Shown piece by piece: positions 18,075 to 62,167 of a stretch of 64,000 bases of DNA. The DNA comes from an uncultured archaeon (GTDB lineage: Archaea; Asgardarchaeota; Lokiarchaeia; Sigyniarchaeales; SOKP01), in NCBI GenBank assembly GCA_964583985.1, contig CAZOYD010000004.1, forward strand, positions 18,809 to 82,808, given 5' to 3'. The notes beneath the pieces are model-generated. The model was not told where the DNA came from. It ran no database searches and saw nothing but the letters and a program-made list of their open reading frames with translations. Numbering within the stretch: the first letter of the stretch is position 1; the number at the start of each line of letters is the position of its first letter. Both the position numbers and the translations under genes were made by a program.

Positions 18075-18182
18075 TATTTGCTAGACTCCAAGAATATTTT
18101 ATAATTATCCTTCTTATGATTTATCATTTACTACAATTTGAGAAATGTTCTATATATATATAAAATATCACGATACTTATTT

Positions 18183-20680: not shown

Positions 20681-20789
20681 CGTTAACTAGCCATCTAATT
20701 TAAATATTAATCAAGAAAAACTTAATTCTTTATAAAATTTTACCCATCATAAATATAAACAAATGTATTAAAAAAGGTTATAAAAAATC

Positions 20790-21572
20790 CTATTTAGCGC
20801 CAATATTTTCTTGAGCAATTAAAGCTGCTCCAATTGCTCCAGTTAATTGGGGAAATTCCGGTATGACAATCTCATATCCAAGTTCTTCTTCTAAATATTT
20901 TTTAACTGCACTATTTAAAGCTACACCTCCACAAAATACGAGTTGAGGCTCAACTCCGATCCTCTTTGCCATTCCTGCTACTCTTTTTGCAATTGACTTA
21001 TGGATTCCACTCGCAATATCTTCTTTTGAAGCACCTCTAGCAAATAAGCTAATTACTTCACTTTCAGCAAATACAGTACAAGTTGAACTAATAGATGCTG
21101 GATTATTTGATTTTAAAGCCAGTGAACCAAATTGCTCAATAGGAACCTCTAATGCATGAGCCATAACTTCAAGGAAACGTCCGGTTCCTGCAGCGCACTT
21201 ATCATTCATTTGAAAGTCAATAACTTTACTTGTCTTTGAAGAAATTAATATAGCTTTGCTATCCTGACCTCCAATATCGATTACAGAACGAGCTTCAGGA
21301 AAAAAGTATTGTATCCCTTTAGCATGAGCCGTGATTTCAGTAACTCTATCATCAGCGATATCAATTGTATTTCTACCGTATCCAGTGCTCATAACATATA
21401 CATCAGATCTTTTAAGATTATGTTTGATTAGAATATCATCAAATAATTCATGCCCTATTTTTTTAAAATTATAGGTTGAACGTTCAGTACGATGATCAGC
21501 CAACTTGCCTTCAATAATCAAGGCAATTTTTGTGGCAAGACTTCCTATATCGATTCCAATAAAAATGTCCAT
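20790..21572 (-). CDS. CoA-substrate-specific enzyme activase (BcrAD/BadFG/HgdC-type ATPase)
   Basis: 260 aa. IGIDIGSLATK, IDIGGQDSK, MNDKCAAGTGRFLEVMA, CTVFAESEV, FCGGVALN. Confidence 0.9.
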   Translation of the reverse strand: MDIFIGIDIGSLATKIALIIEGKLADHRTERSTYNFKKIGHELFDDILIKHNLKRSDVYVMSTGYGRNTIDIADDRVTEITAHAKGIQYFFPEARSVIDIGGQDSKAILISSKTSKVIDFQMNDKCAAGTGRFLEVMAHALEVPIEQFGSLALKSNNPASISSTCTVFAESEVISLFARGASKEDIASGIHKSIAKRVAGMAKRIGVEPQLVFCGGVALNSAVKKYLEEELGYEIVIPEFPQLTGAIGAALIAQENIGAK

Positions 21573-44600: not shown

Positions 44601-45002
44601 ACAAAATATATTTACTTATTGCTTAAGCAATTACAGAAAGATGATGTTGAAAACATTTCAGAATCGATTTTAGTTGTCAAATTACTCCTAATTTACCAAA
44701 ATTGGTTTACTAAAATCCAAATGAATGTATATGATGAATCATCAATCTTCAATATATTGTTTAAAGATCCTGAAATACAACAATTTTTACGATTTAACAG
44801 GTATCAAGATATTTTATGGTTCAATGCAGAATTTTTCGAAACTTTAACCAGATGGCTTTCAATAATAGCCATCATTAATCTTTTAAGTAATGGTGGTGAG
44901 TTACCTAAAAACCTACAGATATTAACAGATTTGCATCAAAAATGGAGGGAAACAGCAAAAACTTCAAAATATCAAGTTAATTTGTTTTTAGAAAATCAAT
45001 AA
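41610..45002 (+). CDS. large GH13-like glycosidase with long N- and C-terminal extensions
   Basis: 1130 aa. Central GH13 regions I ASDMVPNH, II IRFDAAM, III LLAEAFW, IV FMNNPDE. Confidence 0.75.
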   Translation: MKLSIKARKQYQLDDFSFSPSGNVLFAGDIYSVRKFIQKINQTKDLIRFPELGFKTGNFNGMALIYNIQEHILELYKKETETPELMKDLYVYLSRKFNEKEIEDSLRTFIDEFPPESVYNKKLSSTEYLKRTMGETNNSALILEEFIPVWLGNNNPSFSPYLELFNDEKLEKETKYVEIINEIYNFFEEKPKFGPKNQNLIKMLEDPIKNHPYSIREQLEYLLETWGEILGDYSHTILLALDLIREEEAFRGLGPGRSEAYAYDMLDVENFTPDKDWMPKVVMIAKNTYVWLDQLSKKYHRSITKLNEIPDEELDQLKRWGFNALWLIGLWERSQASKIIKNWCGNPEAEASAYSLYDYIIAYDLGGQEAFENLKQRALYRGIQLASDMVPNHTGIVSKWMKEHPNWYISLPYPPFPSYSYSGNSLSNDSQYGVFLEDKYFNRTDAAVTFKYVNYNTGETKYIYHGNDGTSFPWNDTAQLNFLMKEVRESVIQTILHVSRMFPIIRFDAAMTLTKKHYQRLWFPEPGTGGAIPSRAEHGITRDVFHDAMPEEFWREVVNRINKENPDTLLLAEAFWLLEGYFVRSLGMHRVYNSAFMNMLRDEDNAMYRLVIKNTLEFDPKILKRFVNFMNNPDEETAIKQFGDGDKYFGICTMMITMPGLPMFGHGQVEGFYEKYGMEYRRTYWNEEINLGLLQHHENIIFPLMKKRYLFAEVKDFLLYDFFIGNSVNEDVFAYSNRVGNERALVIYHNKYAETKGFIKNSVAFVVKDSDDKKLLQKTVGEGLKLPKEGYCIFKDAIMNLEYIRRNNDIHHQGLYVELHAYQTLVFVDFRIVQDNEFFHYAQLYDFLNGKGVYDIDETLTSIIYRPLHSPIEELVNEDILHKIINNTLKDSERKKYRNILKTFLFEVKKYSSSNKNVTPVYNQILNDILSASNLESVFKDYLKDDKIKFLIEKLIPLNTIDWGILYSWIVIRPLGRIISDEDYELRSRSLVDEWHITKYIYLLLKQLQKDDVENISESILVVKLLLIYQNWFTKIQMNVYDESSIFNILFKDPEIQQFLRFNRYQDILWFNAEFFETLTRWLSIIAIINLLSNGGELPKNLQILTDLHQKWRETAKTSKYQVNLFLENQ

Positions 45003-50784: not shown

Positions 50785-51030
50785 AATTCATCGCGTGATT
50801 CAAGTTGACTCATAGAACAGAAAAGATAACCTTAAATATCTAATTTTTGTCCTATGATAATTGAAATAAATTTTGCAGTGGTATGAAGTAAGTAAACTTA
50901 GAATGAAAACTATCATATTTATCTGTCAGACTCAAATAAATTTTTATATCCTTTATATCAATATATTTATAATTAAAACAATAAATAAACAATTAGGTAA
51001 TTGCTATTGTCTGAAATTAAATTATTTTCC

Positions 51031-52365
51031 ATGTTCGTTGAGAGCATTCAATTAAATATCGATGATTTTTTAGTAGAAGAGCTTACAGAAATGCAAAAGG
51101 AAATCATAGATGAAGCCACGTTTATTTTCAAGGAAAATATCGTTGGAGATATTAAGCCCTTTGGAGGAAATATAAAAAAAAACGAGGAAAAATATAATGA
51201 ATTATTAAAACATGCAGAAGAGGAACTCAAATTAGAAAAATATAAAGATATCAAGAAGCAACTCAAGGACTATCTTAGTAAATTACCAGAATTAATCATA
51301 AAAACCTGTGGAGCTAAAATTCCTGTTAAAGAATTTCCTTGGGTAGATATTATATTTCGAACTGTACCTCGTATTATATATGATGAAAAAGTAAAACTCT
51401 TAGATAAATCAATTACTTATTATGGAGAAATTAAATGTTTCATTGGTAGAACAACCCTCTATGGTAAAATCAAGGATCAAGAGCCTCTGTTTGCACCATT
51501 TACAGGAAATCTTGATTTAGGAGGGTACAAGCTTGATACCGCGACAGAAAAACCTAAATCGGAAATGTTCTCTTATGTTAATGCTATCATAAATTCATTT
51601 GATTCAGCCATTACAAAAAGTCAATTAGCTAAGTACCATGAAGAATTCTCTCGGCATGGAGATCCAATCTGTGATTTTTTTATGAAGGAAGATGATTTAA
51701 AAGAATCATTATCAAACCTAACATCCGCGTTTGAAAGCGGCAGAATAAAATCTGACACTGCCGTTTGTGGTATTGCGGTACCAATACCTTCAGATAAAAC
51801 AACACTAATAATCGTAATTGATGAAAGCGATGATAGTAATAGGTATACGAAATGTTTTGAAGCGCAATTAAAATTCTCTGCAGCAGCATGTAATGCCCCC
51901 ATCCCAATGTCGGGAACAATCCCTACTCAAGGAGAACAAACTCCTGGAACTGTTAGTACACCAGGAGGTCAAGAGCTTAAAATATGGTCTGCCGAAGAAT
52001 TAGCCGCACAAGCACAATCGAGATTGAATTCTCAACCGGAAATGCCCGTATGGACAGAAGAAGAATTAGCTAAGCACATTTCCGAAAGAGGAACGGGACT
52101 TCCAGAAGGAATAGAAATGTGGACCGAAGAAGAATTGTTAGAATTAGCTAAACAGAGAGGTGGTGGTGGATTAAATATTCCTGAATGGGAAGATCAAGGA
52201 TTACCTGAATGTAAAAATTGTGGTTATGCTCTAAGATCGGGATGGGATAAATGCCCTGTTTGTGAAACTCCCGTGGGAGAGCAATCTTCTAATAAAACGG
52301 AAAACTCCGAAACACAAAAATCCGAAGAATCTACTGAAGAATCATTAAAAGATCCAGAAGAGTGA
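51031..52365 (+). CDS. hypothetical protein with tandem Trp-acidic motifs and C-terminal zinc ribbon
   Basis: ORF 51001..52365. ATG 51031 preferred. Unknown N-domain of about 290 aa, Pro/Gly/Thr linker, KIWSAEEL / VWTEEEL / MWTEEEL / PEWED repeats, CKNCG..x9..CPVC, acidic tail. Confidence 0.6.
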   Translation: MFVESIQLNIDDFLVEELTEMQKEIIDEATFIFKENIVGDIKPFGGNIKKNEEKYNELLKHAEEELKLEKYKDIKKQLKDYLSKLPELIIKTCGAKIPVKEFPWVDIIFRTVPRIIYDEKVKLLDKSITYYGEIKCFIGRTTLYGKIKDQEPLFAPFTGNLDLGGYKLDTATEKPKSEMFSYVNAIINSFDSAITKSQLAKYHEEFSRHGDPICDFFMKEDDLKESLSNLTSAFESGRIKSDTAVCGIAVPIPSDKTTLIIVIDESDDSNRYTKCFEAQLKFSAAACNAPIPMSGTIPTQGEQTPGTVSTPGGQELKIWSAEELAAQAQSRLNSQPEMPVWTEEELAKHISERGTGLPEGIEMWTEEELLELAKQRGGGGLNIPEWEDQGLPECKNCGYALRSGWDKCPVCETPVGEQSSNKTENSETQKSEESTEESLKDPEE

Positions 52366-52510
52366 AACTAAATTTAAATAAATCTTCAACTGTTTCTCAC
52401 CCAAAAAATTAATTAGGATCAAAATAGGATTATTTTCCTCTCCATTCAAAACTTTTTTTAACTAGATTTTATTTACAACATTAAAGGTATCAAGAAATTA
52501 AAGAAAAAAA

Positions 52511-53545
52511 TTGTTATCCAATATTTTCTTATTAAAAGGAAATACTTTCCATGATTTGAATTCTCTAGATATTTTTAGCTATCCAGATGATATCTTGAGA
52601 AATAGAAATCATGATTTTGTAAAAAAGGTCATTTTTGGTCATGATCATGGAATTATTGTAGAGAATTATCGTAAAGATATGGCGAATGAGTTGGAGCATT
52701 CAAATCAAAAACTCAATCAAAAATTGAATGATTATTCCTTAGATCGTCCCGTCCCTCAAAATATCGATGGGTTAAATGTGTATACAATATGCATTAATTC
52801 AAAGATGATAATTGGGTTAATTTTTGAAAAAAATGATAATCCAATTGATTATAAAGAGATTTTTGAAGATTTATCGAATGAAATGCTAAATAATGAAAGA
52901 TGTTGCAAGTTTGAAGATGAAATTGAGATTGAAAACTTTCTAATAACTCTTTTTATTGATATTAGGAGATATGGAGATGAATTTATAGAAAAAGCTCCCG
53001 AAATGGCTTTCAAACCCATTGGTATCTTCATTAAAGTGTTTCTCTTTGGTATTGACGATGTTGGTAAAACATCATTTGCACACCGAATTAAAACAGGAAA
53101 ATTTATAGATAATTCTTTCACTCCAACCCGAACTTTCAATATCGAATATATCCAAAAACAAGACGGATATTTAGCAGTTTGGGACATGCCAGGACAACGG
53201 GCATTTAGGGATAAATGGTTTAAAGGAATTCAAGATTCCAATATCATTATATATATGATAGATGCTGCAAATCAGTTGCGATTTGAAGAATCCAAAAGAG
53301 AATTATGGAATTTTTTAAATAAGCATGATTCATCTGGAATTCCTCTTTTAATTTTGGGAAATAAAACAGATCTAATCACGAAACCCGAAGAAATAGAAAG
53401 TAATCTTTTCAGAACTAAACAAGAAATAATGGATTATTTTGAACTTGATAAAATCAACGATCGAGATTATTATTTCTTTTTTACATCAGTAAAGACTAAT
53501 TTTAATATGAATGAAGTAATGAACACTCTTTTTAATATAGTGTGA
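52511..53545 (+). CDS. Arf/Sar-like small GTPase with an uncharacterised N-terminal domain of about 170 aa
   Basis: 344 aa, TTG start. G1 GIDDVGKTS, G3 WDMPGQ, G4 GNKTD, G5-like TSVK in aa 173-344. Confidence 0.8.
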   Translation: MLSNIFLLKGNTFHDLNSLDIFSYPDDILRNRNHDFVKKVIFGHDHGIIVENYRKDMANELEHSNQKLNQKLNDYSLDRPVPQNIDGLNVYTICINSKMIIGLIFEKNDNPIDYKEIFEDLSNEMLNNERCCKFEDEIEIENFLITLFIDIRRYGDEFIEKAPEMAFKPIGIFIKVFLFGIDDVGKTSFAHRIKTGKFIDNSFTPTRTFNIEYIQKQDGYLAVWDMPGQRAFRDKWFKGIQDSNIIIYMIDAANQLRFEESKRELWNFLNKHDSSGIPLLILGNKTDLITKPEEIESNLFRTKQEIMDYFELDKINDRDYYFFFTSVKTNFNMNEVMNTLFNIV

Positions 53546-53655
53546 TTGACTTAATGATGAGTTTTTTTAGAGTGAATTTCCAAAGATTAAATTTATAAAT
53601 CTAAAAGATTAAATTTCTATTATAATAAATGAGATAAACCGAGCAGATACTCATT

Positions 53656-54252
53656 ATGTTTAAAAGATTAAAAAAAGATTTGAATATTAATATCGAAGAA
53701 AAGGATGGACAACTGTTCTTGGGTGATAAAAAGAAAGACATGCGCCTAGTAATGCTGCGACCCAATGAAATAATGGAATTTTGTGAGTTTACTGGTACGA
53801 ACGCAGAAGATATTTTGAGTTGGGTCGGAAAAACTCTCGGAAAGGGTTTTATGGAACAATTCTTCTATAATAAGGATTGGAGTGCTGAAAATCTTGCCGT
53901 AAAGAAAGAAGTGGTTCTTGGAACATTGGAAGCCTTGATGTTAATGGGATATGGGGCCTTAACAGGGCTCTTCAAAAAAGATCACATCATGATTAACGTT
54001 TATGGATCCCTCGCAAAAGAGGAAAAAGAAAGCGTAATGGCTAAAAATTTATGCGTGTTATATCTTGGTATATTCACGGGAATCTTGGACGTGCTCGGAA
54101 TTGAGGCTGACGGAAAAGAAATAGAGTGCATTTTAACGGGTGGTGAAAAATGTTCCTTTAAATTTGACTTCATCGGAGAAGAAATTGACGATAGCTTAGT
54201 TGATGAGGATCTTTCAGAAGAAACTGTAACCGAATTTTTAGCATCTCTCTAA
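53656..54252 (+). CDS. V4R-domain protein (Bet3/TRAPP-related fold)
   Basis: 198 aa. C-terminal pattern C..YLGIFTGILDVLG....(E)IECILTGGEKCSFKF matches the V4R Cys signature. Confidence 0.6.
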   Translation: MFKRLKKDLNINIEEKDGQLFLGDKKKDMRLVMLRPNEIMEFCEFTGTNAEDILSWVGKTLGKGFMEQFFYNKDWSAENLAVKKEVVLGTLEALMLMGYGALTGLFKKDHIMINVYGSLAKEEKESVMAKNLCVLYLGIFTGILDVLGIEADGKEIECILTGGEKCSFKFDFIGEEIDDSLVDEDLSEETVTEFLASL

Positions 54253-54590: not shown

Positions 54591-56942
54591 ATGAATGAAA
54601 AAGGCGTCAAACTAAAAGTTGACTCTTATTCAGGTCCACTAGGAAAGATCAAGGGATTCGAATTTACAGCGGGAAAACTTGTAAGTGAAGGCGATGAAAC
54701 GGAATGGGAAGTGATGGGACCGACCCCAAAACCTCATATTCCTACTCTACGTCCCTGGTTCTTCAAATTAATGGAAAGATACAAACCTTATTATATGCCT
54801 ATATGTGATATGTGTTGTTTGTGCACTTATGGTAAATGTAATCTTTCTAAAGGGAGAACTGGCGCATGTGGTATAAATATGGAGACTCAACAAGCAAGGA
54901 TAGTCCAAATTGCATGTGCTATTGGAGCCGCATGTCATAGTGCTCACGGTGATCATCTACTACATTGGCTCAAAGAGAAATATGGCAACGTTCCAATTAA
55001 TTTTGGAAATAATATTGCGGTAGAAATGCCACTTACGCGATTGCTTGTGGGAATGAAGCCAGAAACCTTAGAGGATTTGGAGACTGCTATGGAATGGGTT
55101 CATTATACAATCACCCACGTTTTAGCAGCTGGACATACAGGTCAAGAATCAAATTATATCGATTATGAAAATAAAAGTTTTGTTGCGGGATTAGCTGATG
55201 AGGTAGGCATGGAGATAGCTGATGCCGTTCAAATCGCAGCATATGGTTTCCCCATGGGTGAAGCAGATGTTCCAATTGTTGAGTTAGGCATGGGAACGAT
55301 GGATGTAGAAAACAAAGCAACGGTATTGATGATTGGACATAATGTAGCACCTGGTATCGAACTTGTAGACTATATTAGAGAAAAAGGTTTAGAAGATAAA
55401 CTTGATGTGGGAGCAATTTGTTGCACAGCACATGATTTAACAAGGTATTATGATGGTGCTAAAGTAATTGGTTCAATGTCAAGACAAATGCACTTTATCC
55501 GTTCAGGATTAGCTGATGTAGTTATGGTTGATGAACAATGTGTAAACCTCCGAAGTTTTGAACAAGCCCAACTTGTAGGATCTCCGTTTATTGCTACAAA
55601 TGAGAAAAACATGGGGGGTTTACCCGATAGAACTAATGACCCCGCTGAAGAAATTATTGATGATTTAGTCAGTGGTAGAGTCCCGGGAGTTTTAATTTTA
55701 GATCCGATAAAAGCAGGCATTGTAGCTTCTGAAACTGCTGTTAAAATAAAACCAATTAGAAAGGGTAGAAGTGGAGTTCCAGATGAGCAAGGTTGTATTG
55801 ATATGGCCTATAATTGCAATGGATGCGGTAATTGTCAACGAAACTGTCCTAATGATCTTCCTCTTGTAGAGGGAGTAAGACTTGTCAAGGAAGGCGATTT
55901 TTCCGTGCTAGCCGATGCGTTTGATCACTGTTTAGATTGTGGAAGGTGCGAGGCAGACTGCATGAAAAATGTTTCTCCATTAACACTTTTAATGTATGCT
56001 GGACGGGATAAGATAAGACATGAGACATTTAACATGAGAGTTGGAAGAGGACCCATACAAGATACAGAAATAAGAAATGTTGGGGCTCCGATTGTACTTG
56101 GAGAAATACCTGGAATTGTAGCAATAATTGGATGTGCAAGTTATGGCAAAGAAATCCAAGAATTATACAAGATGGCAGAAGAATTTCTTATACGAAATTA
56201 CATTGTGGTAGTTTCTGGGTGTGGTGCAATGGATATCGGACTTGTTAAAGATGAAGATGGTAAAACATTGTATGATCGATTTCCGGGAGATTTTGATCGC
56301 GGAGGATTAGTGAATGTCGGATCTTGTGTTTCTAATCCACACATTACTGGTGCTGCTTGTAAGGTAGCAAATATTTTCGCAAGAAGACCTTTAAGAGGAA
56401 ATTTTGAAGAAATCGCAGATTATATCTTGAATCGAGTAGGTGCTGTAGGTGTAGCGTGGGGCGCAATGTCTCAAAAAGCTGCAAGTATTGCATCGGGCGC
56501 TAATGGTTTGGGAATTCCTGCAGTTTGCGGACCTCATGCCGCAGAATATCGAAGAATGTACATTGGACGTTCTGATGATGACGAAACATGGAAAGTTTTT
56601 AATGCACGAGATGGAACACCAGATCAACTAGTAGGACCCGCACCTGAACATTTGCTTTGCACTGCTGAATCAATAGAACAAGCAATTTGCTTAGTTGCGA
56701 AATTAGCTATTAGACCCGCGGATAACTCAAAAGGCAGAATGATCAAACTTTCTCATTGGATAGACTTGGAAAGAAAATATAAAGGCGTTGATTTGCCAAA
56801 CGACTTAGAGAAATATATCCGTGTTGAATCAGATATTCCAATCAATATGAAAGAAGAAATTCACGAATATCTAAAGCAAAAAGATTGGCAACCACGTGAG
56901 ATAGTAGATCCAACTTTAATCAAGAGATTGTGTAGAGTTTAA
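54591..56942 (+). CDS. cdhA: acetyl-CoA decarbonylase/synthase complex alpha subunit (Ni-CO dehydrogenase catalytic subunit)
   Basis: 783 aa. N-terminal Cys cluster CDMCCLCTYGKCNL...GACG. Inserted 2x[4Fe-4S] ferredoxin motifs CNGCGNCQRNCP and CLDCGRCEADC. C-cluster region GCGAMD, GSCVSN. Confidence 0.9.
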   Translation: MNEKGVKLKVDSYSGPLGKIKGFEFTAGKLVSEGDETEWEVMGPTPKPHIPTLRPWFFKLMERYKPYYMPICDMCCLCTYGKCNLSKGRTGACGINMETQQARIVQIACAIGAACHSAHGDHLLHWLKEKYGNVPINFGNNIAVEMPLTRLLVGMKPETLEDLETAMEWVHYTITHVLAAGHTGQESNYIDYENKSFVAGLADEVGMEIADAVQIAAYGFPMGEADVPIVELGMGTMDVENKATVLMIGHNVAPGIELVDYIREKGLEDKLDVGAICCTAHDLTRYYDGAKVIGSMSRQMHFIRSGLADVVMVDEQCVNLRSFEQAQLVGSPFIATNEKNMGGLPDRTNDPAEEIIDDLVSGRVPGVLILDPIKAGIVASETAVKIKPIRKGRSGVPDEQGCIDMAYNCNGCGNCQRNCPNDLPLVEGVRLVKEGDFSVLADAFDHCLDCGRCEADCMKNVSPLTLLMYAGRDKIRHETFNMRVGRGPIQDTEIRNVGAPIVLGEIPGIVAIIGCASYGKEIQELYKMAEEFLIRNYIVVVSGCGAMDIGLVKDEDGKTLYDRFPGDFDRGGLVNVGSCVSNPHITGAACKVANIFARRPLRGNFEEIADYILNRVGAVGVAWGAMSQKAASIASGANGLGIPAVCGPHAAEYRRMYIGRSDDDETWKVFNARDGTPDQLVGPAPEHLLCTAESIEQAICLVAKLAIRPADNSKGRMIKLSHWIDLERKYKGVDLPNDLEKYIRVESDIPINMKEEIHEYLKQKDWQPREIVDPTLIKRLCRV

Positions 56943-57041
56943 ACATTAATCCTTTTTTACAATATTTTTTATCTTTTTAATTTATCTTTATTTTAAACAA
57001 ATAATTCTAATACAAAATCACAAAAAGTCTTGAATGGAATC

Positions 57042-57248
57042 ATGCTAGACAAACAAAAGGAAAAATTGGCTAAATTGTGTGAACACTGGGCAAATCACAA
57101 TGAATCTCACATGGAAAGTTTTGTAAAATGGCGGGATATAGCAAATGAGATGCAGTTAAAATCAGCGGTTGAAGATTTAAATAAAGCAATTGAATCAATG
57201 AAGGAGTGCAATAAACACTTGCTCTCTGTAATAGATGGCATTAAATAA
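57042..57248 (+). CDS. small His/Cys-rich helical protein
   Basis: ORF 57030..57248. ATG 57042 gives 68 aa with CEHWANHNESH and KECNKH. Same strand as cdhA, 100 bp downstream of it. Confidence 0.4.
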   Translation: MLDKQKEKLAKLCEHWANHNESHMESFVKWRDIANEMQLKSAVEDLNKAIESMKECNKHLLSVIDGIK

Positions 57249-57280: not shown

Positions 57281-58489
57281 TTAGATGAACAAATTGATTA
57301 AGGGCAATAATTCTTTCTTGAAATAACCTATTTTATCATGCAATAATTGCGGATTTTCAGAAAGGAACCATAGATATACGGGGATATTTAATTCGGAATA
57401 CTCAAATAGCTTTTCACCTCGAATCGTAAATCCATTCAATGGAAACTCGAGTGTCATGATACTTTCACGCATTAATCCCATGGATTGATGGAAATTTGAA
57501 AGGGTTTGCAACAATAGAGCAGTATTATTCAATATTGCTTCACCAATATCATCTGAAGTGTATGTGCCGAAAATTAAACCGTCCATCGAAATTAAGCTGG
57601 TGGATTTTCCTTTAATTGAACCAGTGAAATCCTCTAATATATTTTCAATAATTTCAGACGTTTCAGATACTTTCTTTAATGCTATGCTAAACATTTGCAT
57701 GATGGTTTCTTTTTGATAAATGGTTGTATCAGCAAAATCGACTTTAAAGTTGCTAAATTCACTAGAAATTTGAGTGAATTTACTTTTAATGGCTTTAACA
57801 TTGTTCTCCCACTCTAAGGTTCTTCGAAAATCTTGATCACTCTTGCTAAGAACCACAAATACTGGGGGATTTTCATTTAAATCGCGGAGTGCGTTTAATA
57901 CTTGCCGATAATAATTAGCCGCTTCAGGAAATCGATCCGAATCTTTTGTATCTATAACATACAAGACTAAATCAGCATCGGTAAAAAATAGATCAGGTCT
58001 ATTAAAGTACAATTTTTCCCGATATTGTACTTGCCCTCCTAAATCCCAAGAGATGATTGGATAACCAAAAAAATCTAGTTTCTCTCGTTTAACGCCTCTC
58101 GTTGGTAATAATGATTTGATAATCGAGAATTTATCTTGTAAAACTGCCAAGATGGAACTTTTTCCTCCATTATCCAAGCCAATCATGAGGATTTTTTTGT
58201 GTGATTTCATTTGTTCTTTGATCGTTTTAACTACTACTTTGGCTATTTTAACCCATTTTGATAAAATTTGTGAAGGGATTTCCTTAATCTCTGGAAGATT
58301 ATCTTCGGAAATTTTAGCCAGATCTTCGATTGATTTGATTTTATGCTCCTCTAATTTGTTAGAAGATATCTGATCAATTCCAATTAGAGTATCAGGCTTA
58401 AAATCTAATATTTCTTCAAGCTCGTTAATCAGGATCGAGCTCTTAAAGAAATCTTTTATTTTTACATTCTTCATCTCGTTATTTGACAT
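57281..58489 (-). CDS. Sar1/Arf-like small GTPase fused to a C-terminal roadblock/LC7-like domain (N-terminal HhH-like segment)
   Basis: ORF to 58501 (GTG); ATG at 58489. G1 GLDNGGKSS (Sar1: GLDNAGKTT), G3 WDLGGQ, G4 SKSD. C-terminal ~125 aa show an alpha-beta-beta-alpha-beta-beta pattern (SLISMDGLIFGTYTSDDIGEAILNNTALLL). Confidence 0.8.
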   Translation of the reverse strand: MSNNEMKNVKIKDFFKSSILINELEEILDFKPDTLIGIDQISSNKLEEHKIKSIEDLAKISEDNLPEIKEIPSQILSKWVKIAKVVVKTIKEQMKSHKKILMIGLDNGGKSSILAVLQDKFSIIKSLLPTRGVKREKLDFFGYPIISWDLGGQVQYREKLYFNRPDLFFTDADLVLYVIDTKDSDRFPEAANYYRQVLNALRDLNENPPVFVVLSKSDQDFRRTLEWENNVKAIKSKFTQISSEFSNFKVDFADTTIYQKETIMQMFSIALKKVSETSEIIENILEDFTGSIKGKSTSLISMDGLIFGTYTSDDIGEAILNNTALLLQTLSNFHQSMGLMRESIMTLEFPLNGFTIRGEKLFEYSELNIPVYLWFLSENPQLLHDKIGYFKKELLPLINLFI

Positions 58490-58686
58490 GAAACATCGCA
58501 CAAGATTTCAAATAAATAGTCATTTAATTTAAAATGGTTTTATTTAATATGAAACTTCTAATTTATAAAATTAATGGAAACAAAAAAACACCCTATCCAA
58601 AAAAAAATCCATAATTATTTATTCTTTTAATTAAATTATAAAATTAGAATCATTCATACACCGTAGATTATTTAAGGTTTAGGCTA

Positions 58687-59868
58687 GTGACTGAACGAGT
58701 TCCTGAAAATATTGTAGTTTGTATAGATACTTCTAGATCCATGTTTAGAACAGACTATAGGCCAAACAGACTAAAAGCCAGTGTAGATGCGTTGAAAAAA
58801 TTGATTAGTGAAAGGTTAGCACTTGATTCTAATAGCTATTTTGCGATAGTGAAATTTTCATCGAAAGCAAAAAAAATAAGCGATTTTACCAATATTAAAG
58901 AGGATCTCTATGGAACTCTGAATAATATTAAGTTATCAGGAAAATCATCGATGGGTGAAGCGATCGGTTTATCAATTAAAATGATTATTGCTGAATTAAG
59001 GAAAATTGCTGCAAAAACTCCGCGCATCCTCCTTGTAACTGATGGGATGTATTCAAAAATGGCGGTGGATCCTTTAAAGATGGCTAGATTAGCTCAAGGA
59101 TTGAAAATTAAAATTGATTCTATGCGCTTAGGAGAATTGTCAACCAATAATATATTGAAGAAAATTAGCGATATTACAGGAGGAAATTATTACTTTAATA
59201 ATGATAGTGATACTTTACTTCGATCAGCCCATGATCTAGCAGAGTCAAATATCAAGACTTATGGTGGAGGTATAGGCACGTTTATACAAAATTCTGTTTT
59301 TCTGAGAAAAATAGCTGCCGATTTACTGAGAGTTCAAGATTTAACCAAAGATCAAGAGCAAAGATTATTACAAATAAGAGGATTAGCAGATTATAAAAAA
59401 TGCTCAATTTGTTTCTCTGATACTAATCCTTATACTAAAAGTTCATTTTACGTGAGTGGTAGATATTGTCCCAGTTGCCAAACCCCGTATCATATTCATT
59501 GTTTAGCAGGGTGGGCAGAATCACAAAAAGATGCCAAAATGAAACGTGCTGGAACTGTGAGATGTCCACATTGTTTCTATTTATTGAAAATTCCTACAGA
59601 AGTCACACAAATTCAAAAATTTAAAACGCTAGCAAGACCAAGTATTCAATCTAGAGAGTTGCCTGAAGGTCCGCAACAATTTGACGCTAAAATAGTAAAA
59701 TTTGATTCGGATGCAATGTTTATTTCATGTCCAGTATGTAATTTAATCTTTGATGATGGGCAAAAAATTGTAAAATGTGGAAGTTGTGGAACTCTTTATC
59801 ATGAACATTGCTTTAAAGAATTAAAAAATGGGCAGTGCAAAATCTGTGAATCATTCTTAAAGCTTTAA
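58687..59868 (+). CDS. von Willebrand factor A domain protein with two C-terminal C4HC3 (RING-CH / PHD-type) zinc fingers
   Basis: 393 aa, GTG start. MIDAS DTSRS plus LLVTDG. Finger 1 (59401-59574): C-x2-C-x18-C-x2-C-x4-H-x2-C-x20-C-x2-C with HCLAGW. Finger 2 (59728-59847): C-x2-C-x12-C-x2-C-x4-H-x2-C-x8-C-x2-C. Confidence 0.8.
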   Translation: MTERVPENIVVCIDTSRSMFRTDYRPNRLKASVDALKKLISERLALDSNSYFAIVKFSSKAKKISDFTNIKEDLYGTLNNIKLSGKSSMGEAIGLSIKMIIAELRKIAAKTPRILLVTDGMYSKMAVDPLKMARLAQGLKIKIDSMRLGELSTNNILKKISDITGGNYYFNNDSDTLLRSAHDLAESNIKTYGGGIGTFIQNSVFLRKIAADLLRVQDLTKDQEQRLLQIRGLADYKKCSICFSDTNPYTKSSFYVSGRYCPSCQTPYHIHCLAGWAESQKDAKMKRAGTVRCPHCFYLLKIPTEVTQIQKFKTLARPSIQSRELPEGPQQFDAKIVKFDSDAMFISCPVCNLIFDDGQKIVKCGSCGTLYHEHCFKELKNGQCKICESFLKL

Positions 59869-59969: not shown

Positions 59970-60845
59970 ATGCCAGATTTTTATGAATATGGAACTCTTA
60001 AATTGGGATATGGGAATTTTAAACGTCCTCCAATATTAATTGGAACCATGTTTTATCAAGGTCAAACACTCGTAGAACGTGATGATCCTTCTAAATTCAA
60101 TATTGAAAAAGCAGAAAAACGGATATTAAAGCAAAAGTCCTTAGCAATGCAATATAAAATTCCAGATTTATTAGAAATTTCTGCTGATACTCCTAAAGCA
60201 ATGTTGAAGTATCTAGATTTTTACCTTGATCATTTTGAGCCTCCATTTGTTCTTGGGGGTACTCTTGAAGCAAGATCTGCAGGACTTGAATATCTTAATG
60301 AACGAGGGATAAAACCGACTGAATTTATATACAATGCAATCTCGAATTTAAAAAATAAAGCTGAAATAGATCTTCTTAAGAGATTTAAAATTCAATCTGC
60401 AGTAATTTTGATTTTAGCTTCACCAGATATGACATCTACTCAACGATATGCTTATATCACGGAGAAAAGCCAACAAAATGATATTAATATAATAGATGGT
60501 TTGAAGAAATTGGGTATTGAGAGAATTTGGATTGATGGAGGTGTCATAAATCTAGAAAGTTTAGCACATATTATGGAAACACAACAAATGATATCAACAT
60601 CACTTAAATTACCTGTCGGTACGGCTCCAAACCTCTTTCTATTCAAGTATTCGTCTCCTCGATTAAACGAGAAATTTCACACTAGATACAGAAGGGCCAG
60701 CATCATGTTCATCGCTACTTGGTACTCGAATTTTATATATTATGGTCCAATTGAAGATGCAACTGAGTGTTTTGCATCAGCATATCAATCTTATGAGTAT
60801 AAAAAAATAGTATCTGAACATAATATCCGACTTATGGATAGTTAA
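59970..60845 (+). CDS. MtrH-family (tetrahydromethanopterin S-methyltransferase subunit H-like) methyltransferase
   Basis: 291 aa. Aligns by eye to MtrH: IGTMFYQGQ..VERD...FN..KAEK, YLDFYL, PFVLGGT.EARSAG, YNAIS, LPVGTAPN, YGPIEDATECFASA. Confidence 0.75.
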   Translation: MPDFYEYGTLKLGYGNFKRPPILIGTMFYQGQTLVERDDPSKFNIEKAEKRILKQKSLAMQYKIPDLLEISADTPKAMLKYLDFYLDHFEPPFVLGGTLEARSAGLEYLNERGIKPTEFIYNAISNLKNKAEIDLLKRFKIQSAVILILASPDMTSTQRYAYITEKSQQNDINIIDGLKKLGIERIWIDGGVINLESLAHIMETQQMISTSLKLPVGTAPNLFLFKYSSPRLNEKFHTRYRRASIMFIATWYSNFIYYGPIEDATECFASAYQSYEYKKIVSEHNIRLMDS

Positions 60846-61012: not shown

Positions 61013-62167
61013 ATGTTTAATCAAGATGATAAAGAAGAACAAGAAATTCAAGCAATAAAGCTTATAGATCAAGCAGAAGTGCTTGCTGATCGAGGAAAAG
61101 GAGAAGAAGCAATTAAAATATATGAACAAGCAGCACAAATATATTTAGATCTTGGAAGCTATTTAAAATTGGATGAACTATTCATCCGAATAACATCCAT
61201 AATACTAAAATTTAAAAATCACATCCAGGCTACATACAGATTGAAATCAATCATTAGAAAAACGGAGGAATTAAAGCTATTTGAAATTTCTGCCAAATTA
61301 TTAGTTAATTTAGGAAATATTGCTTTTAAAATGAATGATTGGGAGACTGCTGGTGAGAGTTGGAGTCAAGCTTCTGATTATTTATATACAGCAGATCCTG
61401 AAGAATTTCATAATTTAGCTTCGATCCTATTACTAAAAGCAGGACAATCTTATGAACGGGCATCGCAAACCAGAGAATTGGGAAAGAAACTTATTTTCAA
61501 AGCAGTAATGAGACATAACAAGTTTTTTGAACTTTACCAAGAAGAAGAAAAACAGGCTCAATTGTTAATAGCAAATAAAGATTTTGAAGCAGCATCTAGA
61601 AAATTCCTTGAAGTCTCCCATTATTTCAAGAAAACATTGGATAATTTAGGTGATCTTTTAAATGATGAGGAAGATAAAGATACCATGCTTAACGCAAAAG
61701 CAAGATTCATTCATTTTGTTGCAGAGTATCAAACAATATCGGCCATCTGCTTATTTGCAACAAATAATCCAGAAAATAACGAGCAGATACAAGATCTTGG
61801 AAGGAATTCCATTAATTTATTTAAGGATTCCATATCCTTACTTCAAGATTATTTATACTCCAAAAAGAAAGAATTTGATAAGGAGATAGTACTAAGAATA
61901 ACCTTTGATACAATGTTATTAGCAATTATTCAAAGAATGTTGAATATTAAAGAAATCAACTGCATTGAAAATCTCTTAACCCCAATTGAAAGCAATAAAG
62001 CTATTGTCAAGGATATTAAGAAAAGTCCCTACTTTAAAATAACTCAACAAATTGAAGAAGTGGGAATAAATGATACTTTAAACAGTATTCTAAAAATAAA
62101 TTTAGGACACTTCGAAAACATAAAAAATGCCCTGGTTACGCATTTTCTGAATCAAAATCCAATATAA
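61013..62167 (+). CDS. TPR-like helical-repeat protein
   Basis: 384 aa. Repeated about 34-40-aa helix pairs with A/G/Y/L spacing (EEAIKIYEQAAQIYLDLGSY; WETAGESWSQASDYLY). Confidence 0.5.
   Translation: MFNQDDKEEQEIQAIKLIDQAEVLADRGKGEEAIKIYEQAAQIYLDLGSYLKLDELFIRITSIILKFKNHIQATYRLKSIIRKTEELKLFEISAKLLVNLGNIAFKMNDWETAGESWSQASDYLYTADPEEFHNLASILLLKAGQSYERASQTRELGKKLIFKAVMRHNKFFELYQEEEKQAQLLIANKDFEAASRKFLEVSHYFKKTLDNLGDLLNDEEDKDTMLNAKARFIHFVAEYQTISAICLFATNNPENNEQIQDLGRNSINLFKDSISLLQDYLYSKKKEFDKEIVLRITFDTMLLAIIQRMLNIKEINCIENLLTPIESNKAIVKDIKKSPYFKITQQIEEVGINDTLNSILKINLGHFENIKNALVTHFLNQNPI

What the first reader, a model, noticed from the sequence alone, without database searches (positions are those of the whole stretch)
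58687..59868. vWA domain protein ending in two C4HC3 (RING-CH/PHD-type) zinc fingers
The N-terminal vWA domain has an intact MIDAS motif (DTSRS ... TDG). It is followed by two cross-brace-type fingers with exact C4HC3 spacing. The first also carries the H-x2-C-L-x2-W signature (YHIHCLAGW) characteristic of RING-CH (MARCH/Doa10-type) E3 ligase domains. Prokaryotic RING-family domains are rare. vWA plus RING-like zinc domains is also the layout of eukaryotic TFIIH p44/Ssl1. This could be an E3-like or adaptor protein in an archaeal ubiquitin-like or GTPase-coupled system.
Basis: partly seen in the sequence, partly recalled or inferred. Interest (0 to 1): 0.7.

Follow-up and report, generated by a model that had tools for sequence, protein, structure and literature searches.

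The report
Lokiarchaeal vWA protein with two RINGs
This is a real, strongly conserved gene of Lokiarchaeia (Asgard archaea) that joins a metal-dependent binding domain to two RING-type zinc fingers; it is most likely a multi-domain ubiquitin ligase, a eukaryote-like design I found no description of.

Summary
ORF 58687-59868(+) encodes a soluble 393-aa protein. It has an N-terminal vWA domain with an intact MIDAS (D14-x-S16-x-S18, S87, D119), then two helices, then two C4HC3 zinc modules (residues 239-296 and 348-387).

Relatives with any taxon label are all Lokiarchaeia/Helarchaeota or Asgard-labelled MAGs, and most are annotated only as "VWA domain-containing protein". Among members only 21-41% identical, nearly the only invariant positions are the zinc ligands.

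Both modules model as beta-beta-alpha RING folds.
- **Finger 2** matches RING-H2 E3 ligases such as RLIM, Ark2C and RNF38.
- **Finger 1** is nearest FANCL, listerin, NSE1 and SLX1. It keeps the classical E2-docking residues (Ile241, Trp276, Pro294).
- **RING-CH:** the specific MARCH/Doa10 call is not supported.
- **p44/Ssl1:** the resemblance in layout is real, but membership is unproven.

Gene order is fixed in about 80 species genomes: Rag-like GTPase (divergent), vWA-2RING, MtrH-like, TPR. The TPR pairing also survives in one relative at 41% identity.

Most likely this is a vWA-adaptor RING E3 of the Asgard ubiquitin system, possibly coupled to the GTPase and the TPR protein. Catalysis is untested, and no E1, E2 or ubiquitin gene lies in the window.

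The parts
58687..59868 (+). Whole gene: vWA-2RING protein, 393 aa, GTG start, stop included
   Evidence: ORF list. At least 300 homologues at 58-86% identity over the full length. 122 relatives in GTDB species genomes.
58708..59244 (+). vWA domain (residues 8-186)
   Evidence: Pfam VWA_2 5e-16, VWA 9.6e-14, Ssl1 4.9e-8. The model has pLDDT 84-94 over most of the domain. TM 0.85 to the p44/Ssl1 vWA domain and about 0.77 to Rpn10. The family profile hits Rpn10 at 6e-18 and p44 at 1e-15.
58726..58740 (+). MIDAS motif D14-T-S16-R-S18. Completed by S87 (nt 58945-58947) and D119 (nt 59041-59043).
   Evidence: Translation. Invariant in the 40 orthologues; degenerate in distant paralogues.
59293..59379 (+). 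Two conserved linker helices before finger 1 (residues 203-231, FLRKIAADLLRVQDLTKDQEQRLLQIRG)
   Evidence: Among the most conserved stretches of the orthologue alignment. Helices at fragment residues 4-10 and 22-32 of the C-terminal model.
59401..59574 (+). Finger 1: C4HC3 RING-variant (residues 239-296). Ligands C239, C242, C261, C264, H269, C272, C293, C296. Putative E2-docking residues I241, W276, P294.
   Evidence: All 8 ligands, plus W276, are invariant in 28 diverse members. I241 in 26/28, P294 in 26/28. Nearest solved relatives are FANCL, listerin, NSE1 and SLX1. Beta-beta-alpha order in the model.
59575..59727 (+). Inter-finger segment: helix 304-316, a low-confidence linker, and a short beta hairpin 331-337
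   Evidence: C-terminal model secondary structure and pLDDT.
59728..59847 (+). Finger 2: C4HC3 RING (residues 348-387). Ligands C348, C351, C364, C367, H372, C375, C384, C387.
   Evidence: Pfam Prok-RING_1 34.4 bits (cut-off 29.1) and zf-RING_2 29.3 bits (cut-off 27.3). Profile hits to Arkadia at 6e-8, and to ARK2C, RNF38, RNF13, RLIM and Hrd1. Foldseek hits to RNF12, RNF165 and RNF38 RING domains at rmsd 1.5-2.5 A.
58502..58686 (.). AT-rich 185-bp divergent intergenic region shared with the GTPase gene
   Evidence: Sequence. The GTPase gene lies about 1.4 kb upstream on the opposite strand at a near-constant offset in most of 82 loci.
57281..58501 (-). Divergently transcribed Rag/Gtr-like GTPase, 406 aa, with a C-terminal extension (probable partner, regulator or substrate)
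   Evidence: Pfam Gtr1_RagA 1.1e-21, Arf 8e-19. PDB 8yl2_A 2.6e-34, then Arl3, Gtr1 and RagA. G1, G3 and G4 motifs are intact. Adjacent in 82 of the 90 loci compared.
59970..60845 (+). MtrH-like methyltransferase, co-directional. Probably an unrelated insertion between the vWA-2RING and TPR genes.
   Evidence: Pfam MtrH 1.6e-32; NCBIfam MtrH-family 8.7e-50. Present in 85 of 90 loci but absent between the pair in L091.
61013..62167 (+). TPR protein, 384 aa (weak SNAP-like match). Candidate partner of the vWA-2RING protein.
   Evidence: Pfam TPR_12 and SNAP. Found in 80 of 90 loci. Its orthologue (27% identity, E 1e-37) lies directly downstream of the 41%-identical vWA-2RING gene in L091. Only generic TPR matches in the PDB.

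Best explanation
The gene encodes a soluble, cytosolic, multi-domain RING-type E3 ligase found in Lokiarchaeia.

Shown by computation:
- an N-terminal vWA domain with a complete MIDAS metal site;
- two conserved helices;
- two zinc-binding RING-fold modules whose 16 ligands are the most conserved positions of the family.

Inferred:
- The vWA domain captures a partner or substrate through a metal-bridged acidic residue, as in other MIDAS domains.
- Finger 1 docks a ubiquitin-charged Asgard E2. It keeps the Ile (C1+2), Trp (C6+4) and Pro (C7+1) that form the E2-binding groove in c-Cbl-type RINGs.
- Finger 2 is RING-H2-like but lacks the Trp and Pro. It acts as a structural or second-site partner, as in tandem or heterodimeric RINGs.
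- The downstream TPR protein and the divergently transcribed Rag-like GTPase are the likeliest partners, regulators or substrates.
For: - **Domains:**
- **Ligand invariance at 21-41% identity:**
- **E2-docking triad:** I241 26/28 (the other 2 are Val), W276 28/28, P294 26/28.
- **Finger 1 relatives:** nearest to the active C4HC3 E3s FANCL and listerin, with ligands in register.
- **Finger 2:** above the Pfam RING cut-offs. It superposes on RING-H2 domains solved with E2~Ub: RNF12, Ark2C, RNF38, RNF13. Giant-virus RING-H2 E3s top the viral library.
- **Finger 1 vs finger 2:** homologous by hhalign (95%).
- **Cascade exists in the clade:** Asgard archaea have working E1/E2/RING-E3/ubiquitin cascades (bioRxiv 10.1101/2023.07.25.550441; PMC5654768).
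- **Context:** gene order is fixed across about 80 species genomes. The TPR pairing is kept in one locus at 41% identity. One divergent paralogue sits next to a ThiF/E1-like gene. Small GTPases are enriched near divergent paralogues: 7 in 111 kb against about 1.9 expected from 74 GTPases in the MK-D1 genome (PMC10933270), whose roughly 4.4 Mb size I quote from memory.
Against: - No E1, E2, ubiquitin or JAB gene lies in the window or within 8 kb in any of the 80 orthologous loci.
- The residue after the last ligand of finger 1 is Phe/Tyr, not the Arg/Lys 'linchpin' of many highly active RINGs.
- Finger 1 reaches no Pfam gathering score on its own, and it matches PHD models about as often as RING models.
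- Many RING folds are purely structural, for example the p44 RING and the GATOR2 RINGs (my own knowledge).
- Conserved synteny within one class also covers clearly unrelated genes (CdhA, ArsR), so adjacency is weak evidence of a functional link.
Confidence: 0.5

Rival explanations
1. Non-catalytic scaffold. The two RING folds and the vWA domain only mediate protein-protein contacts, with the TPR protein, the GTPase or paralogues, and transfer no ubiquitin. This is how the p44 RING binds the p34 vWA domain in TFIIH.
For: - Full-length p44/Ssl1 chains are the best Foldseek hits.
- There is no linchpin Arg.
- No ubiquitin-system gene lies nearby.
- Several paralogues occur per genome and two lie on one contig (L010), which would allow vWA-RING heteromers.
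- The conserved TPR partner fits a scaffold role.
Against: The Ile/Trp/Pro E2-docking triad is almost invariant at 21-41% identity. That is not expected for a purely structural RING. The nearest solved relatives of both fingers are active E3s.
Confidence: 0.27
2. Zinc fingers acting as GTPase-effector, lipid-binding or reader modules (C1-, Rubicon-RH- or PHD-like). They would bind the GTP form of the neighbouring Rag-like GTPase or a membrane, with the vWA domain as an output domain.
For: - Pfam C1_1 is hit by 16 of 28 members, PHD by 13 of 28 and RH_dom by 4 of 28.
- PHD is hit by 26 of 30 finger-1 sequences.
- The RAF1 CRD and Munc13 C1 domains appear among the Foldseek hits.
- GTPase adjacency is conserved.
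Against: - All these hits are below the gathering scores.
- RING-H2 domains score better in both sequence and structure comparisons.
- There is no Trp before ligand 7, as PHD fingers have.
- C1 domains use a different ligand order (my own knowledge).
Confidence: 0.12
3. A true archaeal orthologue or ancestor of TFIIH p44/Ssl1, working with an XPD helicase in repair or transcription.
For: - Ssl1 Pfam model above its cut-off (33.5 against 27 bits), and at E<=0.01 in 15 of 28 members.
- Weak Tfb4 hits.
- Same length and the same vWA - Zn module - RING order.
- Top Foldseek hits.
Against: - Generic vWA models score much higher than Ssl1.
- The family profile scores Rpn10 above p44, and yeast Ssl1 gets only 34 bits.
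- In the exhaustive search, hits that match the vWA part only and have BatA/BatB-like lengths and positions score 70-90 bits.
- The p44 RING aligns at only 10 bits.
- The C-terminal model matches p44 with probability 0.2-0.35 and rmsd 13-16 A.
- No helicase is a neighbour in any locus.
Confidence: 0.05
4. An Rpn10-like proteasome-associated ubiquitin receptor.
For: Rpn10 vWA domains are the best sequence matches in the PDB (6e-18). A proteasome alpha-subunit gene lies 2.3 kb from one divergent paralogue (L094).
Against: No UIM or other ubiquitin-binding motif was detected by Pfam. The C-terminal half is two RINGs instead. The proteasome adjacency is a single case.
Confidence: 0.03

Closest known systems
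Plant RGLG1/RGLG2 E3 ligases (copine-type vWA + C-terminal RING)
   Same: Soluble protein with a vWA/MIDAS domain followed by a C-terminal RING. In RGLG the vWA domain is the substrate- and metal-sensing module and the RING recruits the E2 (PMC7155146 and PMC12647413, listed). This is the best model for how the protein works.
   Different: RGLG has one RING-HC finger and a copine-type vWA domain. This protein has two C4HC3 fingers, and its vWA domain is nearest Rpn10, p44 and BatA-type domains. No Copine hit appears in Pfam. Homology beyond the shared domain families was not tested.
TFIIH subunit p44 / Ssl1 (GTF2H2)
   Same: About 395 aa, with a vWA domain followed by two zinc modules, the last RING-like. 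Best full-length Foldseek matches. Pfam Ssl1 is above its cut-off.
   Different: The p44 zinc modules use different ligand sets and align poorly (10 bits; rmsd 13-16 A). Generic vWA and Rpn10 score as well or better. No XPD- or p34-like neighbours.
FANCL / listerin / NSE1 / SLX1 C4HC3 RING variants
   Same: Finger 1 has the same C-x2-C ... C-x2-C-x4-H-x2-C-(L/A)-x2-W ... C-P-x-C pattern, with all ligands in register. Pfam FANCL_C, zf-RING-like and SLX1_C are hit by 19, 15 and 12 of 30 finger-1 sequences.
   Different: E-values are marginal (0.004-0.03), and the surrounding architectures are unrelated.
Prok-RING_1 (PF14446) and eukaryotic RING-H2 E3s (RLIM, Arkadia/Ark2C, RNF38, RNF13)
   Same: Finger 2 passes the Prok-RING_1 and zf-RING_2 cut-offs. 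It superposes on these RING domains at 1.5-2.5 A.
   Different: Ligand 4 is Cys rather than His (C4HC3, not C3H2C3). The Trp and Pro of the E2 groove and the linchpin Arg are absent from finger 2.
Asgard / Aigarchaeota small RING finger protein (srfp) E3 of the ubiquitin operons
   Same: An archaeal RING E3 in the same clade. It shows that a cognate E1/E2/ubiquitin cascade exists there.
   Different: srfp proteins are small, have a single RING and are encoded inside ubiquitin operons. This protein has three domains and two RINGs, and it lies away from any ubiquitin-system gene.
RING-CH (MARCH / Doa10, Pfam RINGv)
   Same: The same C4HC3 ligand order.
   Different: The canonical spacing is not met. 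RINGv hits are weak and in a minority. Doa10 and MARCH8 score E 3.5 and 9.6. A viral LAP-type protein ranks only 39th. There is no membrane segment.

Membership tests
vWA domain (PF00092 / PF13519) | Profile match above the curated cut-off | tested here: met
   VWA_2 59.7 bits (cut-off 27); VWA 52.4 bits (cut-off 23.8).
vWA domain (PF00092 / PF13519) | MIDAS residues D-x-S-x-S ... T/S ... D | tested here: met
   D14, S16, S18, S87 and D119 are invariant in 40 orthologues. They are degenerate in distant paralogues. Metal binding itself was not tested.
vWA domain (PF00092 / PF13519) | Alpha/beta fold superposable on solved vWA domains | tested here: met
   TM 0.85 and rmsd 2.1-2.3 A to the p44/Ssl1 vWA domain; TM 0.75-0.79 to Rpn10.
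RING finger superfamily (cross-brace, two Zn) | Eight Cys/His ligands in the order and spacing C-x2-C-x(n)-C-x(1-3)-[CH]-x(2-5)-[CH]-x2-C-x(n)-C-x2-C, and conserved | tested here: met
   Both fingers fit. 15 of 16 ligands are invariant and 1 is at least 90% conserved at 21-41% identity.
RING finger superfamily (cross-brace, two Zn) | Profile match above the curated cut-off | tested here: met
   Finger 2: Prok-RING_1 34.4 against 29.1 bits; zf-RING_2 29.3 against 27.3 bits. Finger 1 alone stays below the cut-off (zf-RING_2 20.1 bits; best family member E 7.6e-7). It is linked to finger 2 by hhalign at 95%.
RING finger superfamily (cross-brace, two Zn) | Beta-beta-alpha fold superposable on solved RING domains | tested here: met
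   The model has pLDDT 89.7, with beta-beta-alpha around ligands 3-6 in both fingers. RNF12, RNF165, RNF38 and RNF13 give TM 0.6-0.7, rmsd 1.5-2.5 A, probability 1.0. The output does not show which finger each hit covers. The RING-H2 hits are probably finger 2 and the NSE1 hit probably finger 1.
RING finger superfamily (cross-brace, two Zn) | Interleaved (cross-brace) zinc coordination; 2 Zn per finger | not testable with these tools
This needs a structure or metal analysis.
RING E3 ubiquitin ligase (functional class) | Hydrophobic E2-docking residues (Ile after C1, Trp after C6, Pro after C7) | tested here: met
   Finger 1: I241 26/28, W276 28/28, P294 26/28. Finger 2 lacks the Trp and Pro.
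RING E3 ubiquitin ligase (functional class) | Stimulates E2~Ub discharge or substrate ubiquitylation | not testable with these tools
   Needs a biochemical assay.
RING E3 ubiquitin ligase (functional class) | E1, E2 and ubiquitin encoded in the same genome | tested here: inconclusive
   None appears in the scanned ORFs of the 64-kb window or within 8 kb in 80 orthologous loci. The rest of the genome is not available. The literature reports such systems in Asgard archaea.
RING-CH / RINGv (MARCH, Doa10; PF12906) | C4HC3 with the characteristic short C3-C4 and long C4-H spacing | tested here: not met
   The canonical RING-CH regular expression finds no match. Both fingers have C-x2-C-x4-H.
RING-CH / RINGv (MARCH, Doa10; PF12906) | Best profile or structure match is to RINGv members | tested here: not met
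   RINGv is hit by 9 of 30 finger-1 sequences (best E 9e-4), behind PHD, zf-RING_2, FANCL_C and zf-ANAPC11. Doa10 scores E 3.5 and MARCH8 E 9.6.
RING-CH / RINGv (MARCH, Doa10; PF12906) | Membrane-anchored protein | tested here: not met
   The highest 19-residue Kyte-Doolittle mean is 1.18, so there is no membrane segment.
PHD finger (PF00628) | Profile above the cut-off, and a conserved Trp two residues before ligand 7 | tested here: not met
   PHD scores 20 bits against a cut-off of 24. Hits to finger 1 are frequent but below the cut-off (26 of 30). The residues before C293 and C384 are V-R and G-Q, with no Trp. A helix follows ligand 5, as in RINGs.
TFIIH p44 / Ssl1 | Ssl1 vWA profile match | tested here: inconclusive
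   33.5 bits against a cut-off of 27, and 15 of 28 members at E<=0.01. Generic vWA models score far higher, and Rpn10 outscores p44 in the PDB search.
TFIIH p44 / Ssl1 | C-terminal p44-type zinc modules (C1_4 / p44 RING) | tested here: not met
   No C1_4 hit. The p44 RING aligns at 10 bits, E 2.5. The C-terminal model matches p44 at probability 0.2-0.35 and rmsd 13-16 A.
TFIIH p44 / Ssl1 | Association with the XPD helicase and p34 | tested here: not met
   No helicase gene appears in any examined neighbourhood. Physical interaction was not tested.
Rpn10 / S5a | vWA domain followed by ubiquitin-interacting motifs | tested here: not met
   The vWA domain is similar (6e-18), but no UIM hit appears. 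The C-terminal half is two RINGs.

The most novel reading that the evidence does not exclude
The family is the core of a previously unrecognised, GTPase-coupled ubiquitin-ligase module of Lokiarchaeia: a Rag-like GTPase, a vWA-tandem-RING protein and a TPR scaffold. It would share ancestry with the eukaryotic intracellular vWA-plus-zinc-finger proteins p44/Ssl1 and p34/Tfb4. If so, multi-domain, substrate-specific E3s and a GTPase-ubiquitin regulatory link, recalling the Rag/GATOR2 RING proteins, arose before eukaryotes.
Probability: 0.1. Interest if true: 0.85.

Novelty: new variant of a known kind. Interest (0 to 1): 0.55.

Why it matters
Known archaeal ubiquitin E3s are small single-RING proteins encoded inside ubiquitin operons. 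A strongly conserved family with many paralogues that fuses a substrate-binding vWA domain to two RINGs would show something new. It would mean that Lokiarchaeia had already begun to diversify E3 ligases into modular, target-specific enzymes, a hallmark of eukaryotic ubiquitin signalling.

The fixed position next to a Rag-like GTPase, and the pairing with a TPR protein, give concrete and testable partners. For Asgard small GTPases, regulators and effectors are otherwise hard to predict from genome layout (PMC10933270).

The family also gives a test case for the origin of the eukaryotic vWA-plus-zinc-finger proteins of TFIIH.

In databases the proteins carry only generic names ("VWA domain-containing protein", "YegL"). 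I found no paper describing them.

Tried and rejected
- **RING-CH assignment.** Rejected on spacing, Pfam RINGv, PDB profile hits, viral LAP rank and the lack of a membrane segment.
- **p44 orthology.** The Foldseek top hits looked promising. Sequence profiles, the missing C1_4 hit and the poor match of the C-terminal model to p44 do not support membership.
- **First structure model.** The full-length model from 40 close orthologues gave pLDDT below 50 around finger 1. A C-terminal fragment with 63 more diverse sequences gave 89.7.
- **Genome scan with the diverse alignment.** The search for related loci with A2 failed because no stretch was conserved enough. It was rerun with A1.
- **TPR partner identity.** A profile search against the PDB gave only generic or designed TPR proteins.
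- **Ubiquitin-system genes.** Pfam scans of 55 ORFs found none. The ATPase operon ORFs at 24.0-29.4 kb were not scanned.
- **Literature.** Searches for Asgard + vWA + RING + ubiquitin, and for Asgard + Rpn10/Ssl1/VWA domain, found nothing relevant. Asgard + TFIIH + p44 returned one paper, which proved unrelated when read. The Burroughs et al. 2011 paper on prokaryotic RINGs and Spang et al. 2015 were not held.
- **RNA genes.** There are no tRNA or Rfam matches in the window.
- **Taxon labels of distant clusters.** Only generic names, or Promethearchaeota and Helarchaeota labels, were returned.
Full report
**1. The observation**

The ORF at 58687-59868(+) exists as described: GTG start, 393 aa. 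Homologues start at the same N-terminus.

Pfam finds a vWA domain at residues 8-176 (VWA_2 5e-16, VWA 9.6e-14). It also finds Ssl1 at 33.5 bits against a cut-off of 27. On the last 45 residues it finds Prok-RING_1 (34.4 bits against 29.1) and zf-RING_2 (29.3 bits against 27.3).

DTSRS (residues 14-18), S87 and D119-G120 form a complete MIDAS motif. All are invariant in 40 orthologues.

- Finger 1 (residues 239-296): C-x2-C-x18-C-x2-C-x4-H-x2-C-x20-C-x2-C, containing HIHCLAGW.
- Finger 2 (residues 348-387): C-x2-C-x12-C-x2-C-x4-H-x2-C-x8-C-x2-C.

The pattern occurs nowhere else in the six-frame translation of the window. It appeared in none of 20,000 shuffles of the protein.

**2. The family**

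The window has about 30% G+C. It carries typical archaeal genes: an A/V-type ATPase operon, RadA, a tRNA-splicing endonuclease and a CdhA-like protein.

The protein has at least 300 close homologues, 58-86% identical over the full length. Those with a name are called "VWA domain-containing protein" or "YegL", and nearly all named ones come from Promethearchaeota or other Asgard-labelled MAGs (one carries a bacterial label). In the NCBI taxonomy, Promethearchaeota holds one named class, Promethearchaeia. That this is the former Lokiarchaeota is my own knowledge.

A scan of one genome per GTDB species found 122 relatives. The best 80 are all such MAGs.

An exhaustive profile search of 1.84 billion cluster representatives gave 6040 hits at E<=0.001. 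Among the best 150, hits that cover only the vWA domain dominate below about 100 bits. About 35-40 clusters at 50% identity cover the whole architecture, down to about 100 bits. Every member of these that carries a taxon label is Promethearchaeota, Lokiarchaeia or Helarchaeota.

Two paralogues occur on one contig (L010). The family is therefore expanded within genomes.

In an alignment of 28 members (one 64% and the rest 21-41% identical to the window protein), the invariant columns are 15 of the 16 zinc ligands, W276 and L299. The 16th ligand (C375), I241 and P294 are at least 90% conserved. The MIDAS motif is degenerate in the distant paralogues.

**3. The folds**

A full-length AlphaFold model built from close orthologues was confident only for the vWA domain. 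Against the PDB its best matches are TFIIH p44/Ssl1 chains. These give E 2.5e-16 over about 390 aligned columns, but rmsd about 27 A, so the domains are not co-oriented. The vWA domain alone gives TM 0.85 to p44/Ssl1 and about 0.77 to Rpn10.

By sequence profile the vWA domain scores Rpn10 at 6e-18, human p44 at 1e-15, a Vibrio BatA-like protein at 2e-11 and BABAM1 at 4e-8.

A second model, of residues 200-393 with 63 diverse sequences, reached pLDDT 89.7. It shows, for each finger, two short strands flanking ligands 3 and 4, followed by a helix that starts at ligands 5 and 6. This is the RING arrangement. Its best PDB matches are RING-H2 E3 domains, several solved with E2 or E2~Ub: RNF12/RLIM, RNF165/Ark2C, RNF38, RNF13, RMR1 and EL5. 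They give TM 0.6-0.7, rmsd 1.5-2.5 A and probability 1.0. In the viral library, giant-virus RING-H2 E3s lead and a LAP-type (RING-CH) protein ranks 39th.

Sequence profiles agree. Finger 2 hits Arkadia (6e-8), ARK2C, RNF38, RNF13, RLIM, Hrd1 and AMFR.

A finger-1-only profile hits FANCL (0.004), listerin (0.018), NSE1 (0.022), SLX1 (0.03) and EL5, with all ligands in register. Doa10 and MARCH8 are at E 3.5 and 9.6.

Taken alone, finger 1 passes no Pfam cut-off. Of 30 finger-1 sequences, 26 match PHD, 25 zf-RING_2, 19 FANCL_C, 16 zf-ANAPC11, 15 zf-RING-like, 12 SLX1_C and 9 RINGv.

Finger 1 and finger 2 are homologous by profile-profile comparison (95%, E 3.6e-8).

The protein has no membrane segment.

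So both fingers are RING-superfamily modules. Finger 1 is a FANCL/listerin/NSE1-like C4HC3 variant, not a canonical RING-CH.

**4. Features bearing on mechanism**

In finger 1, three residues are almost invariant across the whole family: Ile two positions after C1 (26/28, the others Val), Trp four after C6 (28/28) and Pro after C7 (26/28). From my own knowledge, these positions form the E2-binding groove in c-Cbl-type RINGs (Ile383, Trp408 and Pro417 of c-Cbl).

The residue after C8 is Phe or Tyr, so there is no Arg/Lys linchpin. Finger 2 has a hydrophobic residue after C1 but lacks the Trp and Pro.

The two helices before finger 1 (residues 203-231) are among the most conserved stretches of the orthologues. 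They probably form an interaction surface.

**5. Gene context**

The order is the same in every locus that is long enough, among 90 loci from about 80 species: DUF8180, then the Rag-like GTPase on the opposite strand, then vWA-2RING, MtrH-like and TPR. The GTPase is found in 82 of the 90 loci, MtrH-like in 85 and TPR in 80. Regions further out vary.

- **GTPase.** It matches Gtr1_RagA (1e-21) and Arf, and has intact G1, G3 and G4 motifs. It is closest to two solved "GTP-binding proteins", 8yl2 and 8zla. GTPase-roadblock fusions are abundant in the cultured Lokiarchaeon MK-D1, which has 74 small GTPases, 26 of them fused to roadblock domains (PMC10933270).
- **Limits of synteny.** Unrelated genes (CdhA, ArsR) are syntenic too, so adjacency within this one class is weak evidence of a functional link.
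- **TPR pairing.** This is the stronger signal. The nearest outgroup member (P0121, 41% identical) is followed directly by an orthologue of the TPR protein (27% identity, E 1e-37), with no MtrH gene between them.
- **Divergent paralogues.** Their contexts differ, but small GTPases recur: 7 in 111 kb over 8 loci, against about 1.9 expected at the MK-D1 density. One paralogue is divergently paired with a ThiF/E1-like gene and another lies near a proteasome alpha subunit. These are leads, not proof.
- **Ubiquitin system.** No E1, E2, ubiquitin or JAB gene was found in the scanned ORFs of the window.

**6. Interpretation**

The most likely reading (about 0.5) is a soluble RING-type E3 of the Asgard ubiquitin system. 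In this model the vWA/MIDAS domain binds the substrate or an adaptor, finger 1 docks the E2, and finger 2 supports it. The TPR protein and the Rag-like GTPase would be partners, regulators or targets.

Working E1/E2/RING-E3 cascades have been reconstituted from Helarchaeia and from Caldiarchaeum. Ubiquitin operons are reported across Asgard archaea.

The main rival (about 0.27) is a non-catalytic scaffold in the manner of p44. Smaller rivals are:
- GTPase-effector or reader zinc fingers (0.12);
- true p44 orthology (0.05);
- an Rpn10-like receptor (0.03).

**7. Comparison and novelty**

Functionally the closest analogue is plant RGLG1/2 (vWA + RING E3). Architecturally and structurally the closest is p44/Ssl1. 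Finger 1 is nearest FANCL, listerin, NSE1 and SLX1. Finger 2 is nearest Prok-RING_1 and RING-H2 domains.

The family differs from the known archaeal E3s (srfp). It has three domains and two RINGs, lies outside ubiquitin operons and is expanded into many paralogues.

Full-text searches found no paper that mentions Asgard together with vWA, RING and ubiquitin, or with Rpn10, Ssl1 or VWA domain; the single Asgard + TFIIH + p44 hit was unrelated. Supplementary tables of Asgard gene-cluster studies could not be searched, so a prior listing cannot be excluded.

I rate it a new variant of a known kind, with interest 0.55.

Noticed in passing
window 57281-58501 (-): Rag/Gtr-like GTPase of 406 aa with a roughly 95-residue N-terminal extension (weak helix-hairpin-helix-like hit) and a C-terminal extension beyond the G domain. 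The G1, G3 and G4 motifs are intact. It is closest to solved 'GTP-binding proteins' 8yl2 and 8zla.
   Followed up: partly
window 51001-54252 (+): A second conserved block upstream: an unknown 454-aa protein with no Pfam or NCBIfam hit, an Arf-like GTPase with a 170-residue N-terminal extension (52511-53545), and a V4R-domain protein (53656-54252). It is syntenic with the vWA-2RING gene in many Lokiarchaeal genomes.
   Followed up: partly
window 54591-57248 and 59970-60845: A CdhA-like CO-dehydrogenase/Prismane protein (783 aa, 76-96% identical across genomes) stands without other cdh subunit genes nearby. It is followed by a small DUF8180 protein. An MtrH-family methyltransferase lies on the other side of the GTPase/vWA-2RING pair.
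   Followed up: no
L095:2158-2973 (-) and L095:109-1737, 5659-6732: A 33%-identical paralogue (P0125) is divergently paired with a 271-aa ThiF/E1-like gene. It is flanked by two Arf-family GTPases and a VTT-domain membrane protein.
   Followed up: partly
L010:4771-10560: Two vWA-2RING paralogues on one contig flank a methionyl-tRNA synthetase gene and an Arf-like GTPase. The MetRS adjacency recurs in L009 and L093.
   Followed up: no
L025, L037-L039, L045, L050, L055, L064, L068, L073, L087: MAGs deposited as Hermod-, Hod-, Odin- or Thorarchaeota carry the Lokiarchaeal-type orthologue (57-68% identity) with the same gene order. Either the block is shared more widely among Asgard archaea, or these labels are unreliable.
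   Followed up: no
window 16725-21572 (-): Three paralogous 2-hydroxyglutaryl-CoA-dehydratase D-component-like genes plus a BcrAD/BadFG-type activator ATPase. This looks like a radical dehydratase or benzoyl-CoA-reductase-like cluster.
   Followed up: no
window 41610-45002 (+): A very large (1130 aa) protein whose only recognisable domain is a weak alpha-amylase catalytic domain. It is flanked by sugar-nucleotide and phosphomutase genes.
   Followed up: no
window 1-64000: No tRNA gene and no Rfam family at gathering score anywhere in the 64 kb.
   Followed up: yes
P0150 (686 aa, Helarchaeota), P0152, P0158: Longer relatives of 619-686 aa match only the vWA domain plus finger 1 (profile positions about 6-340). 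They continue into about 300 further residues with no precomputed Pfam domain (checked for P0150), a variant architecture.
   Followed up: no
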